Shown one piece after another: positions 7,987 through 33,702 of a stretch of DNA of 44,510 nt. The first letter of the stretch is position 1. Every line of letters begins with the position of its first letter. This stretch comes from Enterobacteria phage mEp460: the sequence record NC_019716.1; one strand, given 5' to 3'. Under the pieces are notes generated by a model. That model saw nothing but the letters and a program-made list of their open reading frames with translations, was not told where the DNA came from and searched no databases. Position numbers and translations under genes: made by a program.

Positions 7987-8730
7987 ATGACCACACCAAA
8001 TCCACTGGCAAAAACGAAAGGTGCGGGAACGACGTTCTGGATGTACACCGGCAAGGGTGATGCGTTTGCGAACCCTTTATCGGACACTGACTGGCTGCGT
8101 CTTGCGATGGTGAAGGATCTGCAACCTGGCGAAATGACCGCTGATGCAGAAGATGACACTTATCTCGATGATGAAGATGCAGACTGGAAAACGACAACCC
8201 AGGGGCAGAAATCCGTCGGTGATACTTCGGCGACGCTGGCCTGGCGTCCGGGTGACAGCGGGCAGAAAAAACTGGTTCAGTTGTTCGACTCCGGTGAAGT
8301 CTGCGCGTTTCGTATCAAATATCCCAACGGTACTGTTGATGTTTTCCGTGGCTGGCTGAGTTCACTGGGTAAAACCATTGCCTCAAAAGACGTGATGACC
8401 CGCACCGTGAAAATCAGCGGTGTGGGGCGTCCATATCTGGCAGAGGAGGGCACTGAAACTGTGGGCGTTACCGGGCTGACGGTGGCACCGGCATCCGCCA
8501 GTGTCAATGTGGGAGCAACCACCACGCTGACCTTTACAGTAAAACCTGACGGAGCCAGTGACAAAGCGATCAGTGTGCATTCGACAGATCCACAGACAGC
8601 CACTGTGACCCTGAACGGACTTGTGGCCACGGTGAAAGGCGTGAAGCAGGGCAGTGTCAGCATTGTGGGCATGACTTCTGACGGCGATTTTGTGGCAGTG
8701 GCTACGGTGGCTGTCAGCGCCGCAGGTTAA
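7987..8730 (+). CDS. V: Major tail tube protein V with C-terminal Ig-like (Big_2) domain
   Basis: 247 aa; near-colinear with lambda gpV (KGAGTT.W.Y.G.GD..ANPLSD.DW.RLA.VKDL.PGE.TA...DD.YLDDEDADW...GQKS.GDTS.TLAW.PG). Confidence 0.9.
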   Translation: MTTPNPLAKTKGAGTTFWMYTGKGDAFANPLSDTDWLRLAMVKDLQPGEMTADAEDDTYLDDEDADWKTTTQGQKSVGDTSATLAWRPGDSGQKKLVQLFDSGEVCAFRIKYPNGTVDVFRGWLSSLGKTIASKDVMTRTVKISGVGRPYLAEEGTETVGVTGLTVAPASASVNVGATTTLTFTVKPDGASDKAISVHSTDPQTATVTLNGLVATVKGVKQGSVSIVGMTSDGDFVAVATVAVSAAG

Positions 8731-8750: not shown

Positions 8751-8774
8751 GCCCCGGTTATTCGGGGCTTTTTT
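8751..8774 (+). terminator. Intrinsic terminator/attenuator after V
   Basis: GCCCCG-GTTATT-CGGGGC hairpin followed by TTTTTT. Confidence 0.55.
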
Positions 8775-8790
8775 GCAGGTGGAGAATATG

Positions 8791-9177
8791 ATGTTTCTGA
8801 AACAGGGCACGTTTAATTATGAAAAACAGTCCGTGGTGCTCAGTGAGCTGTCCGGGCTGCAGAGAATTGAATATCTGGCGTTTGTTCAGCAGCGAACGGC
8901 AAAGTTTGATGCCGGGGAGGGAGAACTGCCGGAGGCTGAACGACAGATTGCTTTTCTGCGGATGGGGATGGATATCAATGCCTGGCTGGTTTCCCGCTCA
9001 CTGTGGAATGCGGATCAGTCTAAGGATGTAGAGACGCTTTGCGCATCCGTTATTACAACATGGTCGTATGATGCCCTGGGTGCGGGGGCGGAGATGGTTC
9101 TGTCGCTGAGCGGTATGGGGGCCATTGATAATGCCGGGGATGATGAGCATGAGGCGCTGACGCCGGAAAAGTCCTGA
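8791..9177 (+). CDS. G: Tail assembly chaperone G
   Basis: Starts MFLK like lambda gpG, LSELS.LQRIE.LA motif; followed by T in the -1 frame. Confidence 0.8.
   Translation: MFLKQGTFNYEKQSVVLSELSGLQRIEYLAFVQQRTAKFDAGEGELPEAERQIAFLRMGMDINAWLVSRSLWNADQSKDVETLCASVITTWSYDALGAGAEMVLSLSGMGAIDNAGDDEHEALTPEKS
9165..9171 (+). other. Putative -1 programmed ribosomal frameshift slippery site (GGAAAAG) for G-T fusion
   Basis: Only A AAG/A AAA slippery candidate in the 25-nt interval where both frames are open; lambda uses GGGAAAG at the equivalent position. Confidence 0.5.
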
Positions 9178-9185
9178 CGCGGGAA

Positions 9186-9515
9186 ATGCAGTTTGTCATG
9201 CGGCTTGCCCGGGAGTTCCGGCGGGCAGACTGGCGGCGGATGCTGTCGGAAATGTCGGCCACTGAGCTTGGTGAGTGGGGCGATTATTTCCGGATGCAGA
9301 GCTTCAGTGATGTGTGGATGGATGCGCAGTTTGCCTCGCTGAAGGCATTGATCGTGAGAATGGTGTCCGGCAGCAGTGATGCTGCGGTGGCTGATTTCAG
9401 CCTTTTACCGGAAGAGAACGGGATACCGGAGCGAACGGACGAAGAACTGATGCATCTTGGGGAAGGTATTTCCGGAGGTGTGCGTTATGGACCAGATAGC
9501 CAACCTGGTCATTGA
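9186..9515 (+). CDS. T: Tail assembly chaperone T segment (expressed as G-T fusion by -1 frameshift)
   Basis: ORF in -1 frame relative to G; the -1 frame opens at 9153 within the last 8 codons of G; no RBS of its own. Confidence 0.7.
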   Translation: MQFVMRLAREFRRADWRRMLSEMSATELGEWGDYFRMQSFSDVWMDAQFASLKALIVRMVSGSSDAAVADFSLLPEENGIPERTDEELMHLGEGISGGVRYGPDSQPGH

Positions 9516-12500
9516 TTTGGGGATTGATGCGGCAGAGTTTAAAAATGAAATTCCCCGTATCAAAAACCTTCTGAATGGTGCAGCCAGCGATGCAGAACGG
9601 TCTTCTGCCCGTATGCAGCGTTTTATGGAGCGTCAGACTCAGGCCGCCCGGCAGACAACGCAGGCGGCTTCTTCGGCTGCAACAGCCGCATCCGTCCATG
9701 CGCAGACGGTGGAGAAGAACGCACAGGCTCATGAACGCATGTCCCGCGAGGTGGAGAAAACCCGCCAGCGCATGGAGGCACTGAGCCAGAAAATGCGCGA
9801 GGAACAGGCGCAGGCCATGGCTCTGGCGGAGGCTCAGGATAAAGCGGCTGCTGCGTTTTATCGTCAGATTGACAGTGTGAAACAGGCCGGTGCGGGGCTG
9901 CAGGAATTACAGCGTATTCAGCAGCAGATCCGACAGGCCAGAAACAGTGGCGGGATTGGTCAGCAGGATTATCTGGCGCTGATTTCTGAGGTTACGGCGA
10001 AAACCCGTGTTCTTACACAGGCTGAGGAAGAGGCTACCCGACAGAAAGTGGCGTTTATCCGTCAGCTTAAAGAGCAGGCAACCCGCCAGAATCTTTCATC
10101 TTCTGAGTTGCTTCGTGCTAAGGCTGCCCAGCTGGGGGTAAGCAGTGCTGCAGAAGTGTATATCCGCAAAATGGAGCAGGCAGGAAAAGCCACGCATTCG
10201 CTGGGTCTGAAAAGTGCAGCGGCCCGCCAGGAGATAGGCGTTCTGATAGGTGAACTGGCCCGCGGCAATTTAGGGGCGCTGAGGGGATCCGGGATAACGC
10301 TGGCTAACCGTGCCGGATGGATAGACACACTGATGTCACCGAAAGGCATGATGCTGGGCGGGGTTATTGGCGGTATTGCCGCGGCTGTCTATGGTCTGGG
10401 TAAAGCCTGGTATGACGGTCAGAAGGAGGGGGAAGAATTTAACCGCCAGTTGTCGCTGACGGGGCATTATGCCGGAGTCACTGCCGGGCAGCTGTGGACG
10501 CTTAGTCGTGCTATTTCCGGGAATGGTATCACGCAACATGCTGCAGCCGGTGCGCTGGCTCAGGTGGTGGGGAGTGGTGCATTTCGTGGAAACGATATCG
10601 GTATGGTGGCGAGAGCTGCCGCACAGATGGAGCGATCGGTTGGCCAGTCGGTCAGCGATACCATAAATCAGTTTAAGCGGCTGAAGGATGATCCTGTAAA
10701 TGCCGCGAAGGCTCTGGACAATGAGCTGCATTTTCTTACTGCCACTCAGCTTGAGCAGATACGCGTCCTTGGGGAACAGGGGCGGTCCAGTGATGCGGCA
10801 CGGATAGCCATGTCTGCTCTGGCAGAGGAAACCGGTCGGCGTACTGCGGATATTGATAATAACCTCAATGCGCTGGGCAGTACGCTGAAGTATCTGTCTG
10901 ATTTATGGAGTCGTTTCTGGGATGCGGCCATGAATATTGGTCGTGAAGACTCGCTGGATGAACAGATTTCCGCTTTACAGGAGAAAGTGTCGCGGGCGAA
11001 AAGACTCCCCTGGACGGCATCATCTTTTCAGGTTGAGTACGATCAGCAGCGTCTTAACGAGCTTCAGGAGAAAAAACGCCAGAAGGATTTGCAGGATGCA
11101 AAAGAGCAGGCAGAGCGGAATTATCAGGAGCAACAGAAACGCCGTAATGCTGAAAATGCTGCACTGAACCGGATGAATGAAACGGAAGCAGCACGACATC
11201 AGCGTGAAATTGCGCGTATTAATGCCATGCAGTACGCCGATCAGACTGTCAGGGATGCGGCGATACAACGTGAAAATGAACGTTACGAGAAAGCCCTGGC
11301 ATCCGGTAAGAAAAAAACACGCGAAACCCGTAATGATGAGGCCACCCGGTTATTGCTGCAGTTCAGTCAGCAACAGGCACAGGTGGAAGGACAGATTGCT
11401 GCTGCCAGACAGTCAGCAGGCATTGCCACGGAAAGGATGACAGAAGCGCATAAACAGCTTCTGGCTCTGCAGCAGCGCATCAGCGACCTGGACGGGAAAA
11501 AACTGACGGCAGATGAAAAGAGTTTGCTGGCCCGTAAAGATGAACTGATTCAGGCACTGGCGCTGCTGGATGTAAAACAGCAGGAGCTTCAGAAACAGAC
11601 GGCACTCAACGAGCTGAAGAAAAAAACAATTCAGCTGACCAGTCAACTGGCTGAAGAAGAGCGCGCTCAGCGTCAGCAACATGACCTGGATATCGCCACG
11701 GTGGGTATGGGTGATCAGCAGCGGCAGCGATATCAGGTACAACTGAGTCTTCGCCAGAAATACCAGCAACAGCTGGAGCAGTTGAGGCGGGATAGTGAGC
11801 AGAAAGGGACATATAACACGGATGACTACAGAAAGGCCGAGCAGGCGCTGACGGAGAGCCTGAACCGACAACTGAATGAGAATCGCCGTTACTGGCAACA
11901 GCTTGAAGTTGTGCAGGGTAACTGGAAAAACGGAGTCCTGCGTGCATTTCAGGATTTTACCGTGGATGCAGATAATACGGCAGGAACAGCAGAACAGGTG
12001 TTCTCGTCAGCCTTCAGCAACATGGGAAATGGCCTGGCAACTTTTGTCACTACCGGCAAACTCAATTTCAAATCCTTCACCTCTTCTGTGCTGTCAGATA
12101 TGGCGAAAATCCTGGCGCAGGCAACCATGATGAAATCGATAAAAGGGATTGGCAGTGTACTGGGATTTGATCTCAGCAGCCTTTCCCTGAATGCCAATGG
12201 GGGGATTTATCAGTCTGCTGATTTGAGTCGTTACAGTGGCACGGTGGTTAACCGTCCGACGTTTTTTGCTTTTGCAAAAGGCGCGGGTGTGATGGGGGAA
12301 GCGGGACCTGAAGCCATTCTGCCTCTGCGTCGTGGTGCTGACGGTAAGCTGGGGGTTGTGGCGGATATTGGTGGTTCAGGTATGGCGATGTTTGCCCCGC
12401 AGTACAACATCGAGATCAATAACGATGGCACGAACGGGCAGATAGGTCCGGCTGCCCTGAAGGTGGTTTATGACCTTGGGAAAAAAGCAGCAGCGGACTT

Positions 12501-12552
12501 TATGCAACAGCAGGCCCGTGATGGTGGTCGGTTAAGTGGAGCATATCGGTAA
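9487..12552 (+). CDS. H: Tail tape measure protein H
   Basis: 1021 aa, coiled-coil rich; N-terminus (LVIDLGIDAAEF) and C-terminus (INNDGTNGQIGPAALKVVYD) match lambda gpH. Confidence 0.9.
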   Translation: MDQIANLVIDLGIDAAEFKNEIPRIKNLLNGAASDAERSSARMQRFMERQTQAARQTTQAASSAATAASVHAQTVEKNAQAHERMSREVEKTRQRMEALSQKMREEQAQAMALAEAQDKAAAAFYRQIDSVKQAGAGLQELQRIQQQIRQARNSGGIGQQDYLALISEVTAKTRVLTQAEEEATRQKVAFIRQLKEQATRQNLSSSELLRAKAAQLGVSSAAEVYIRKMEQAGKATHSLGLKSAAARQEIGVLIGELARGNLGALRGSGITLANRAGWIDTLMSPKGMMLGGVIGGIAAAVYGLGKAWYDGQKEGEEFNRQLSLTGHYAGVTAGQLWTLSRAISGNGITQHAAAGALAQVVGSGAFRGNDIGMVARAAAQMERSVGQSVSDTINQFKRLKDDPVNAAKALDNELHFLTATQLEQIRVLGEQGRSSDAARIAMSALAEETGRRTADIDNNLNALGSTLKYLSDLWSRFWDAAMNIGREDSLDEQISALQEKVSRAKRLPWTASSFQVEYDQQRLNELQEKKRQKDLQDAKEQAERNYQEQQKRRNAENAALNRMNETEAARHQREIARINAMQYADQTVRDAAIQRENERYEKALASGKKKTRETRNDEATRLLLQFSQQQAQVEGQIAAARQSAGIATERMTEAHKQLLALQQRISDLDGKKLTADEKSLLARKDELIQALALLDVKQQELQKQTALNELKKKTIQLTSQLAEEERAQRQQHDLDIATVGMGDQQRQRYQVQLSLRQKYQQQLEQLRRDSEQKGTYNTDDYRKAEQALTESLNRQLNENRRYWQQLEVVQGNWKNGVLRAFQDFTVDADNTAGTAEQVFSSAFSNMGNGLATFVTTGKLNFKSFTSSVLSDMAKILAQATMMKSIKGIGSVLGFDLSSLSLNANGGIYQSADLSRYSGTVVNRPTFFAFAKGAGVMGEAGPEAILPLRRGADGKLGVVADIGGSGMAMFAPQYNIEINNDGTNGQIGPAALKVVYDLGKKAAADFMQQQARDGGRLSGAYR

Positions 12553-33425: not shown

Positions 33426-33510
33426 TTCTGCCATTCCGGGACGTTACACTGTTCAGGCACCTTATAAAGCGGGTGCCGGGCGTGGAAACCCGGAATTCAC
33501 CAAAGCGCAC

Positions 33511-33534
33511 AACCGCGCTCTTGCGGTTTTTTTG
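33511..33534 (+). terminator. Intrinsic terminator in the early-right operon (tR1-like)
   Basis: AACCGC-GCTCTT-GCGGTT hairpin followed by TTTTTTT. Confidence 0.6.
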
Positions 33535-33702
33535 TGTAATGAGCAGCATTACGCCCAAATTATGGTGGGGCGTGCAGGGCCAACTTCGGTTGGGCCGGGT
33601 TCTTTGGTGACCGGTATTTCCACCCCTGTACGTCTCACCACCAATAAGGTCGTGGAAAGCCTTGGTGGTGAGTTATTAAAAATCACCAAAGAGGCTGCCA
33701 TC

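What the first reader, a model, noticed from the sequence alone, without database searches (positions are those of the whole stretch)
9153..9177. G-T -1 frameshift window confined to the last 8 codons of G
The T frame is open only from 9153, and G stops at 9177. The only slippery candidate is GGAAAAG (9165-9171), one base different from lambda's GGGAAAG, which implies a conserved programmed frameshift with a slightly different heptamer.
Basis: partly seen in the sequence, partly recalled or inferred. Interest (0 to 1): 0.4.

Follow-up and report, generated by a model that had tools for sequence, protein, structure and literature searches.

The report
Lambda-type G-T tail chaperone frameshift site
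This is the ordinary, already-described programmed -1 ribosomal frameshift that lambda-like phages use to make a small amount of a G-T fusion protein for tail assembly, here with the slip sequence GGAAAAG, which is also annotated in phage N15 and is the commonest version among the enterobacterial relatives I sampled.

Summary
G (8791..9177) is a lambda gpG homologue. The -1 frame is open from 9153 to 9515 and encodes a gpT homologue. In the 25-nt overlap, only AAG (9169-9171) can re-pair cognately in the -1 frame, within G_GAA_AAG (9165-9171).

The heptamer sits at the same aligned place as lambda's G_GGA_AAG, and the fusion alignment continues K-V-(L/F)..E-(M/L)-x-F directly after it. Across 33 diverged lineages the wobble periodicity switches from the G frame to the T frame at the heptamer. 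Heptamer position 1 is a G-frame wobble base, yet it is G in 32 of 33.

GGAAAAG is not new. GenBank annotates it in phage N15 as the "slippery sequence for -1 translational frameshift". It is also present in Gifsy-1, and in 55 of 66 distinct contexts I collected. All 120 IMG/VR hits to a wildcard pattern carry it.

ATG 9186, which RefSeq uses as the T start, has no Shine-Dalgarno sequence and is not conserved.

Two things remain open: the efficiency of the shift, and whether it has a stimulator. In vitro, G_GAA_AAG behaved as a "less slippery" control, and I found no conserved downstream structure.

Verdict: real, functional, already known; low interest.

The parts
7987..8730 (+). Major tail tube protein gene (lambda V homologue). 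It is the upstream neighbour that defines the canonical V-G-T-H gene order.
   Evidence: Pfam Phage_TTP_12 1.5e-66 plus Big_2. The RefSeq annotation of the identical prophage agrees.
8751..8774 (+). Terminator-like GC hairpin followed by a T-run, between V and G.
   Evidence: Found by the consensus scan. The same place is annotated as a terminator in phage Ayreon and as a putative rho-independent terminator in N15.
8791..9177 (+). Gene G, tail assembly chaperone, 128 aa, the zero-frame product. An alternative ATG lies at 8788, and the SD sequence GGAG is at 8781-8784.
   Evidence: Pfam Phage_TAC_2 1.8e-39. RefSeq calls it 'phage tail assembly chaperone G'. Sequence read.
9151..9154 (+). GAGG, a Shine-Dalgarno-like tetramer 10 nt 5' of the heptamer. 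It is a possible but unproven stimulator.
   Evidence: Sequence. SD-like 4-mers occur at spacing 9-14 in 12 of 33 lineages, against 0-8 in control windows. The tetramer is tied to a conserved Glu codon, so the result is inconclusive.
9153..9177 (+). G/T overlap: the only stretch where a -1 shift can join G to T.
9165..9171 (+). Slip site G_GAA_AAG. tRNA-Glu sits on GAA (P site) and tRNA-Lys on AAG (A site). After the -1 slip they read GGA and AAA, and the next codon is GUC (Val).
   Evidence: Positional homology to lambda G_GGA_AAG and to the slippery sequence annotated in N15. Conserved in 55 of 66 distinct contexts and in 120 of 120 wildcard hits. Low entropy across lineages.
9171..9515 (+). 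T segment (-1 frame, 114 codons plus stop), expressed only as the C-terminal part of the 241-aa G-T fusion: join(8791..9171, 9171..9515).
   Evidence: Pfam Phage_tail_T 5.1e-15. Fusion alignment with lambda, Gifsy-1, N15 and others has invariant residues K127, E132, F135, L139-E142.
9186..9188 (+). ATG used by RefSeq and GenBank as a stand-alone T start. It is probably not a real initiation site.
   Evidence: Annotations. There is no SD. The position is Leu in lambda, Gifsy-1, N15 and most relatives.
9487..12552 (+). Tape measure protein gene (lambda H homologue), the downstream neighbour.
   Evidence: Pfam TMP_2 2.7e-49 and Tape_meas_lam_C 3.2e-22.

Best explanation
This is a programmed -1 ribosomal frameshift of the lambda G/GT type. 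Most ribosomes translating G read ...CCG GAA AAG UCC UGA and release the 128-aa chaperone G. A small fraction slip one base 5'-ward while tRNA-Glu is on GAA and tRNA-Lys(mnm5s2UUU) is on AAG. tRNA-Lys re-pairs perfectly on AAA. tRNA-Glu re-pairs on GGA with a G.U pair at the middle position. Translation then continues with GUC in the T frame and yields a 241-aa G-T fusion (...ALTPEK-VLTREMQF...). By homology with lambda, the G part binds the tape measure protein H and the T part recruits the tail tube protein V, and neither ends up in the virion. What is shown here is the ORF architecture, the homology, the positional identity of the slip site, and the frame switch seen in comparative data. 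What is inferred is the slip itself, how far the P-site tRNA takes part, the efficiency, and the function of the products.
For: G and T are homologues of lambda gpG and gpT in the canonical V-G-T-H order. The -1 frame opens only 25 nt before the G stop, and AAG->AAA is the only cognate re-pairing in that stretch. The fusion built at the heptamer aligns without a gap to the lambda GT fusion across the junction, and the slip-site lysine K127 is invariant in 7 diverse fusions. N15's GenBank record marks the same heptamer GGAAAAG at the homologous place as the 'slippery sequence for -1 translational frameshift'. Gifsy-1, 60% identical with the same heptamer and the same stop context, is annotated as frameshifted. 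In 33 lineages less than 88% identical, the most variable codon position is G-frame position 3 upstream (entropy 1.88 against 1.33 and 1.22) and T-frame position 3 downstream (1.27 against 0.67 and 0.41), and the switch falls at the heptamer. Heptamer positions 4-6 are invariant. Position 1, a G-frame wobble base, has entropy 0.20, while neighbouring wobble bases have about 1.95. The codon before GAA varies (CCG, GCG, CTG, ACG, TTG, GTG) but always ends in G. The Lys codon is always AAG and the Glu codon always GAA in the 55 GGAAAAG contexts. All 120 IMG/VR hits to a pattern with a wildcard heptamer carry GGAAAAG. Phage records with this module at 98-100% identity in the phages collection, which give E. 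coli hosts and lie in the 42-47 kb genome-size range (Tritos, mEp460, cdtI, Ayreon, HannyBb), carry it unchanged. A_AAG is the most shift-prone tetramer in E. coli (PMC4066793). NNA_AAG motifs and G_GA-type intermediates between hexamer and heptamer are recognised (PMC5009743). PRFect lists a 'twofour' motif class among annotated phage frameshifts (PMC10885494).
Against: No fusion protein has been observed, and none can be with these tools. In a reconstituted E. coli system, AUG GAA AAG was chosen as the unfavourable, 'less slippery' control and gave mainly zero-frame product (PMC6924986). The A_AAG tetramer alone is barely above background in vivo without a stimulator (about 0.15%; PMC4066793). 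I found no conserved downstream structure: the mean z-score is -0.22 over 33 lineages and +0.57 for the window clade, and the local folds are unremarkable. The upstream GAGG is present in only about a third of lineages. The efficiency may therefore be well below lambda's roughly 1:30 ratio.
Confidence: 0.9

Rival explanations
1. T is made as a free 109-aa protein by independent initiation, or by termination-reinitiation at ATG 9186, 9 nt after the G stop, as public annotation implies. No frameshift is needed.
For: RefSeq/PGAP and the GenBank phage records annotate a stand-alone CDS at 9186..9515. The ATG is close enough to the G stop codon for coupling.
Against: There is no Shine-Dalgarno sequence. 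The ATG is not conserved: the position is Leu in Gifsy-1, lambda, N15 and most lineages. T-frame residues between the heptamer and the ATG (K-V-L-T-R-E) are conserved with relatives, and T-frame codon periodicity starts at the heptamer, not at the ATG. This model gives no reason for selection on heptamer position 1 or for AAG over AAA. From established knowledge of lambda (Levin, Hendrix and Casjens 1993, cited in PMC5009743), T is made only as the GT fusion, whose G part is needed to tether it to the tape measure protein.
Confidence: 0.05
2. The frameshift is real but is a one-tRNA event. Only tRNA-Lys slips, AAG->AAA, as in NNA_AAG hexanucleotide or A_AAG tetramer motifs. It may slip in the P site while the A site waits. 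tRNA-Glu re-pairing on GGA plays no part.
For: The codon before AAG at the homologous site varies among relatives: GGA, GAA, GUA (Pantoea), GCA (Kluyvera, Ewingella) and AAA. Morganella has A_GAA_AAG, without G at position 1. Proteus and Morganella place a stop codon directly after AAG, a context that favours P-site slippage. [quoted passage not shown]
Against: Heptamer position 1 is G in 32 of 33 lineages although it is a synonymous wobble position in six different preceding codons. That is expected if anticodon base C36 of tRNA-Glu must pair after the slip. In the window, the stop codon is not adjacent to AAG.
Confidence: 0.3
3. The frame change is made at the RNA level, by RNA polymerase slippage on the A run (deletion of one A), not by the ribosome.
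For: The site contains a short homopolymer, AAAA at 9167-9170.
Against: Four A's are far shorter than the runs known to support transcriptional slippage (established knowledge; reviewed in PMC5009743). The conserved features are G at position 1, AAG rather than AAA, and lambda's GGGAAAG with only three A's at the same place. These fit tRNA re-pairing rather than run length.
Confidence: 0.01

Closest known systems
Phage lambda G / G-T (-1 frameshift at G_GGA_AAG; Levin, Hendrix and Casjens 1993; Xu, Hendrix and Duda 2004, 2013, 2014)
   Same: The proteins are homologous (fusion about 35% identical). The gene order V-G-T-H is the same, T is in the -1 frame, and the slip site is at the same aligned codon with the same A-site AAG->AAA lysine. 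No T start signal is present.
   Different: Heptamer position 3 is A instead of G, so the P-site codon is GAA (Glu) rather than GGA (Gly), and re-pairing needs a G.U pair at the middle position. The G stop comes 1 codon after the slip site (AAG TCC TGA) instead of 5. The overlap is 25 nt instead of 64 nt. The T part is shorter, 114 aa against 140 aa.
Phage N15 genes 14/15 (GenBank AF064539)
   Same: The heptamer GGAAAAG is identical, at the homologous place, and is explicitly annotated as the 'slippery sequence for -1 translational frameshift'.
   Different: Protein identity is only about 36%. The G tail after the slip is 5 codons. The N15-like clade has a possible 7-bp hairpin about 5 nt downstream that the window lacks.
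Salmonella phage Gifsy-1 STM2596/STM2595
   Same: It is the closest diverged relative (60% identity), with the same CCG GAA AAG TCC TGA context, and is annotated as a gpT homologue made 'by translational frameshifting'.
   Different: It lacks the ATG that public annotation uses as the T start in the window clade.
E. coli dnaX (A_AAA_AAG), and IS3-family or IS1222 NNA_AAG / A_AAG motifs
   Same: All rely on the same tRNA-Lys AAG->AAA re-pairing that makes A_AAG the shiftiest bacterial tetramer (PMC4066793; PMC5009743).
   Different: Those sites depend on an upstream SD-like element and/or a downstream hairpin or pseudoknot. No conserved stimulator was found here.

Membership tests
Lambda-type tail assembly chaperone G/GT with programmed -1 frameshift | Two overlapping ORFs between the major tail (tube) gene and the tape measure gene, the second in the -1 frame | tested here: met
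   V is at 7987-8730, G at 8791-9177, the T frame at 9153-9515 (-1), and H from 9487.
Lambda-type tail assembly chaperone G/GT with programmed -1 frameshift | The upstream ORF is a gpG-family chaperone | tested here: met
   Pfam PF06894 Phage_TAC_2, E = 1.8e-39, covering residues 1-121 of 128.
Lambda-type tail assembly chaperone G/GT with programmed -1 frameshift | The downstream frame encodes a gpT-family domain | tested here: met
   Pfam PF06223 Phage_tail_T, E = 5.1e-15. It aligns with lambda, N15 and Gifsy-1 T from the slip-site lysine onward.
Lambda-type tail assembly chaperone G/GT with programmed -1 frameshift | A slippery sequence in the overlap that allows the A-site tRNA to re-pair cognately in the -1 frame | tested here: met
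   AAG->AAA at 9168-9171 is the only such codon in the overlap.
Lambda-type tail assembly chaperone G/GT with programmed -1 frameshift | Canonical X_XXY_YYZ heptamer, in which the P-site tRNA also re-pairs with at most a wobble change | tested here: not met
   G_GAA_AAG shifts GAA onto GGA, which gives a G.U pair at the second codon position (PMC6924986). This feature defines the canonical motif, not the G/GT family. The family's annotated member N15 has the same non-canonical heptamer.
Lambda-type tail assembly chaperone G/GT with programmed -1 frameshift | The slip site is conserved at the homologous position in relatives, with the coding frame switching there | tested here: met
   The site is a fixed 11 codons before LAREF in every locus where the motif was found. 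The entropy periodicity switches at the heptamer. 55 of 66 contexts carry GGAAAAG, and the others carry GGGAAAG, AAAAAAG, GGGAAAA or GGCAAAA.
Lambda-type tail assembly chaperone G/GT with programmed -1 frameshift | T has no translation start of its own | tested here: met
   ATG 9186 has no SD and is not conserved. This is sequence evidence only.
Lambda-type tail assembly chaperone G/GT with programmed -1 frameshift | A G-T fusion protein is made at a low fixed ratio to G and is required for tail assembly | not testable with these tools
   This needs proteomics, a reporter assay and genetics.

The most novel reading that the evidence does not exclude
G_GAA_AAG was used as a poorly slippery control in reconstituted translation and lacks an obvious stimulator here. 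It may nevertheless give lambda-like GT levels in vivo through an unrecognised enhancer, such as the SD-like GAGG 10 nt upstream, the nearby stop codon, or a nascent-chain or E-site effect. Alternatively, this very widespread phage group may assemble tails with a much lower GT:G ratio than lambda. Either outcome would revise the assumed rules for P-site re-pairing in bacterial -1 frameshifting, or the stoichiometry model of tail assembly.
Probability: 0.2. Interest if true: 0.4.

Novelty: already known. Interest (0 to 1): 0.15.

Why it matters
The main value is for annotation. The T gene of this module is present in 1846 of 5426 complete E. coli genomes. In each record of this module whose feature table I opened (cdtI, Ayreon and the SC516 prophage), T is annotated as a stand-alone CDS from a non-conserved ATG (Ayreon uses a start further downstream) rather than as a ribosomal-slippage join. 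The predicted product is therefore missing its whole G half. For recoding biology there is one minor point. In the lineages I sampled, the favoured G-T slip site is G_GAA_AAG, a heptamer treated as weakly slippery in vitro. It is not lambda's textbook G_GGA_AAG. This suggests that a low efficiency is adequate, or that context matters. Nothing here changes the established picture of tail assembly.

Tried and rejected
- **Downstream stimulatory structure.** Folding 9165-9260 gave z = -2.2, but the structure involves the heptamer itself. The 54 nt after the heptamer gave z = +1.0. Across 33 lineages the mean z was -0.22, with no shared fold apart from a hairpin in the N15-like clade that the window lacks. 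I rejected this as a general feature.
- **Upstream SD-like stimulator.** GAGG lies at the dnaX-like 10-nt spacing, and SD-like 4-mers are modestly enriched at that spacing: 12 of 33 lineages against 0-8 in control windows. However, the tetramer coincides with a conserved Glu codon and is absent from N15 and lambda. I left this as inconclusive.
- **Heptamer frequency in the window.** The count is not above chance, so the argument rests on position and conservation.
- **Literature.** I could not obtain Xu, Hendrix and Duda 2004 or Licznar et al. 2003. Full-text searches for GGAAAAG as a phage slip site found only the in vitro control use.
- **Independent T initiation and transcriptional slippage.** I considered both and rejected them; see the rival explanations.
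- **Sampling bias.** The locus sets were retrieved with the window's protein as first query and ranked by similarity to it. The figure of 55 of 66 therefore overstates how dominant GGAAAAG is among all lambda-like phages.

Full report
**What is at the coordinates**

The window is a lambda-like phage or prophage. The 821 bases around the finding are 99-100% identical to Escherichia phages Tritos, mEp460, cdtI and HannyBb, and about 98% to Ayreon. They are 100% identical to a prophage of E. coli SC516. The module occurs in 1846 of 5426 complete E. coli genomes.

The local gene order is the canonical tail module:
- V, tail tube, 7987-8730
- G, 8791-9177
- a -1 frame ORF ending at 9515
- H, tape measure, from 9487

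Pfam assigns G to Phage_TAC_2 (lambda gpG, 1.8e-39) and the -1 frame to Phage_tail_T (5.1e-15).

**Checking the observation**

The G-frame codons at the end of G are GAG GCG CTG ACG CCG GAA AAG TCC TGA, with the stop at 9175-9177. The -1 frame has TGA at 9150-9152, so it is open from 9153. The overlap is 25 nt.

Only one zero-frame codon in the overlap has a cognate -1 partner: AAG (9169-9171), which becomes AAA. With the preceding bases it forms G_GAA_AAG at 9165-9171. This differs from lambda's G_GGA_AAG by one base.

GGAAAAG as a bare word is not unusual. It occurs 10 times in the window against 6.8 expected. Any claim of function has to rest on context.

**Is it the lambda frameshift site?**

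A fusion built at the heptamer, join(8791..9171, 9171..9515), is 241 aa long. It aligns to the lambda G-T fusion straight through the junction: PEK-VLTREMQFVMRLAREF against AGK-VFDGELSFALKLAREM. In a seven-member alignment of diverse fusions, the slip-site lysine and the following E, F and LARE residues are invariant.

At the DNA level the heptamers of the window, Gifsy-1, N15, mEp213, Flotzy, lambda, Stx2a phages and VT1-Sakai occupy the same column. Three forms appear there: GGAAAAG, GGGAAAG and AAAAAAG.

The GenBank record of phage N15 carries a misc_feature, "slippery sequence for -1 translational frameshift", whose bases are GGAAAAG. Gifsy-1 has the same CCG GAA AAG TCC TGA context as the window, and its T is annotated as made by translational frameshifting. 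The "slightly different heptamer" is therefore already on record for this family.

**Comparative test**

I collected 80 loci from one genome per species and 80 from IMG/VR with the fusion alignment. Wherever the conserved LAREF..DW motif could be located, a slip motif lies exactly 11 codons upstream.

Among 66 distinct sequence contexts the heptamers were:

| Heptamer | Contexts |
|---|---|
| GGAAAAG | 55 |
| GGGAAAG | 6 |
| AAAAAAG | 2 |
| GGCAAAA | 2 |
| GGGAAAA | 1 |

Most of the GGGAAAG contexts are lambda itself, including what look like lambda contaminants in unrelated assemblies.

Homologues where the motif search failed gave further variants:
- Proteus: G_GAA_AAG followed directly by a stop codon
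- Morganella: A_GAA_AAG_TAA
- Pantoea: G_GTA_AAG

The constant element is A_AAG (rarely A_AAA), usually preceded by G_GN.

In 33 representatives less than 88% identical, column entropy shows the coding frame changing at the heptamer:

| Region | Frame scored | Codon position 1 | Position 2 | Position 3 |
|---|---|---|---|---|
| Upstream of heptamer | G | 1.33 | 1.22 | 1.88 |
| Downstream of heptamer | T | 0.67 | 0.41 | 1.27 |

Heptamer positions 4-6 are invariant. Position 1 is a G-frame wobble base, and its neighbouring wobble bases have entropy of about 1.95. Position 1 itself has entropy 0.20. The preceding codon is CCG, GCG, CTG, ACG, TTG or GTG, always ending in G.

A scan of IMG/VR with the heptamer wildcarded returned 120 of 120 GGAAAAG.

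This is strong evidence that the heptamer is selected as a nucleotide sequence and that translation passes from the G frame to the T frame there. One caveat applies. The loci were retrieved and ranked by similarity to the window's protein, so the predominance of GGAAAAG is biased upward.

**Mechanism**

The best-supported model is -1 slippage with tRNA-Glu on GAA and tRNA-Lys on AAG. tRNA-Lys re-pairs perfectly on AAA. tRNA-Glu (anticodon mnm5s2UUC, from established knowledge) re-pairs on GGA as G:C, G.U, A:U. The conserved G at position 1 argues that the P-site tRNA does take part.

Variation of the P-site codon among relatives (GGA, GAA, GUA, GCA, AAA) points the other way. So does the Morganella form, which lacks G at position 1. 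These leave room for a mostly one-tRNA mechanism of the NNA_AAG type (PMC5009743).

The efficiency is unknown. Three published results bear on it:
- In a reconstituted system, AUG GAA AAG was used as the unfavourable control and gave mainly zero-frame product (PMC6924986).
- The A_AAG tetramer alone gives about 0.15% in vivo without a stimulator, and 5.6% with a pseudoknot (PMC4066793).
- Lambda's GT:G ratio is about 1:30 (PMC5009743).

I found no conserved downstream structure. GAGG lies 10 nt upstream, the dnaX-like spacing. SD-like words are modestly enriched at that spacing (12 of 33 lineages against 0-8 in control windows). But the word coincides with a conserved Glu codon and is missing in N15 and lambda, so it remains a lead and nothing more.

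**Rival explanations**

RefSeq and the phage records start T at ATG 9186 as a separate gene. That ATG has no Shine-Dalgarno sequence and is Leu in most relatives. It also lies downstream of T-frame residues that are themselves conserved. Independent initiation or reinitiation is therefore unlikely to be the functional route.

Transcriptional slippage on four A's is not credible.

**Comparison and verdict**

This is a member of the lambda G/GT tail-chaperone frameshift family. It carries the same non-canonical heptamer that is annotated in N15 and present in Gifsy-1. It meets every sequence-level criterion of the family except the strict X_XXY_YYZ rule, which the family's own annotated members also break.

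It is already known biology, so interest is low. The residual question is how a weakly slippery heptamer without an evident stimulator provides enough GT. That question is experimental.

Noticed in passing
window 8751-8774 (+): A GC-rich hairpin (GCCCCGG..tta..TCGGGGC) followed by a T-run lies between the V stop (8730) and the G start (8791). It is terminator-like. The same place is annotated as a terminator in phage Ayreon and as a putative rho-independent terminator in N15. It may lower G/T/H expression relative to V.
   Followed up: partly
window 9151-9154 (+): A GAGG tetramer lies 10 nt 5' of the heptamer, the spacing at which an SD-like element stimulates dnaX frameshifting. SD-like 4-mers occur at spacing 9-14 in 12 of 33 lineages, against 0-8 in control windows. 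The tetramer is confounded with a conserved Glu codon.
   Followed up: partly
window 9186-9515 (+): RefSeq/PGAP (WP_001161009.1, 'phage tail assembly protein T') and the cdtI record annotate T as a stand-alone CDS from a non-conserved ATG, with no ribosomal-slippage join (Ayreon's record starts T further downstream). The module occurs in 1846 of 5426 complete E. coli genomes.
   Followed up: yes
window 33457-33533 (+) and 33558-33645 (+): Two Rfam matches above the gathering score: isrK Hfq-binding RNA (67 bits) and C4 antisense RNA (83.6 bits), adjacent to each other. They are unrelated to the finding.
   Followed up: no
loci L069-L075, L077-L081 and L088-L092 (genome contigs): G-T loci matching the query at the same 38% identity as lambda, with the same 64-nt overlap and GGGAAAG, turn up on short or low-coverage contigs of unrelated organisms (Neobacillus, Kitasatospora, Pseudomonas, Shewanella, Chromatium, Enterococcus and others). 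This most likely reflects lambda DNA contamination of those assemblies.
   Followed up: no
L025-L027 (Morganella); L030, L031, L036-L038 (Proteus): In these homologues the G stop codon directly follows the slip-site AAG (G_GAA_AAG_TAG/TAA; Morganella has A_GAA_AAG_TAA). This 'shifty stop' context could favour P-site slippage.
   Followed up: partly
L006 (N15), L022, L045, L054 and similar loci, about +5 to +38 nt after the heptamer: A 7-bp stem (GCCAG..CTGGC) recurs, starting about 5 nt 3' of the heptamer, with fold z-scores down to -3.2. It may be a clade-specific stimulator. It is absent from the window clade and from lambda.
   Followed up: partly
L064, L066, L082 (Pantoea); L021 (Kluyvera); L023 (Ewingella): Further slip-site variants occur at the homologous codon: G_GTA_AAG, and G_GCA_AAA followed by TAG in the zero frame. 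The P-site codon therefore appears to be free to vary as GNA.
   Followed up: partly
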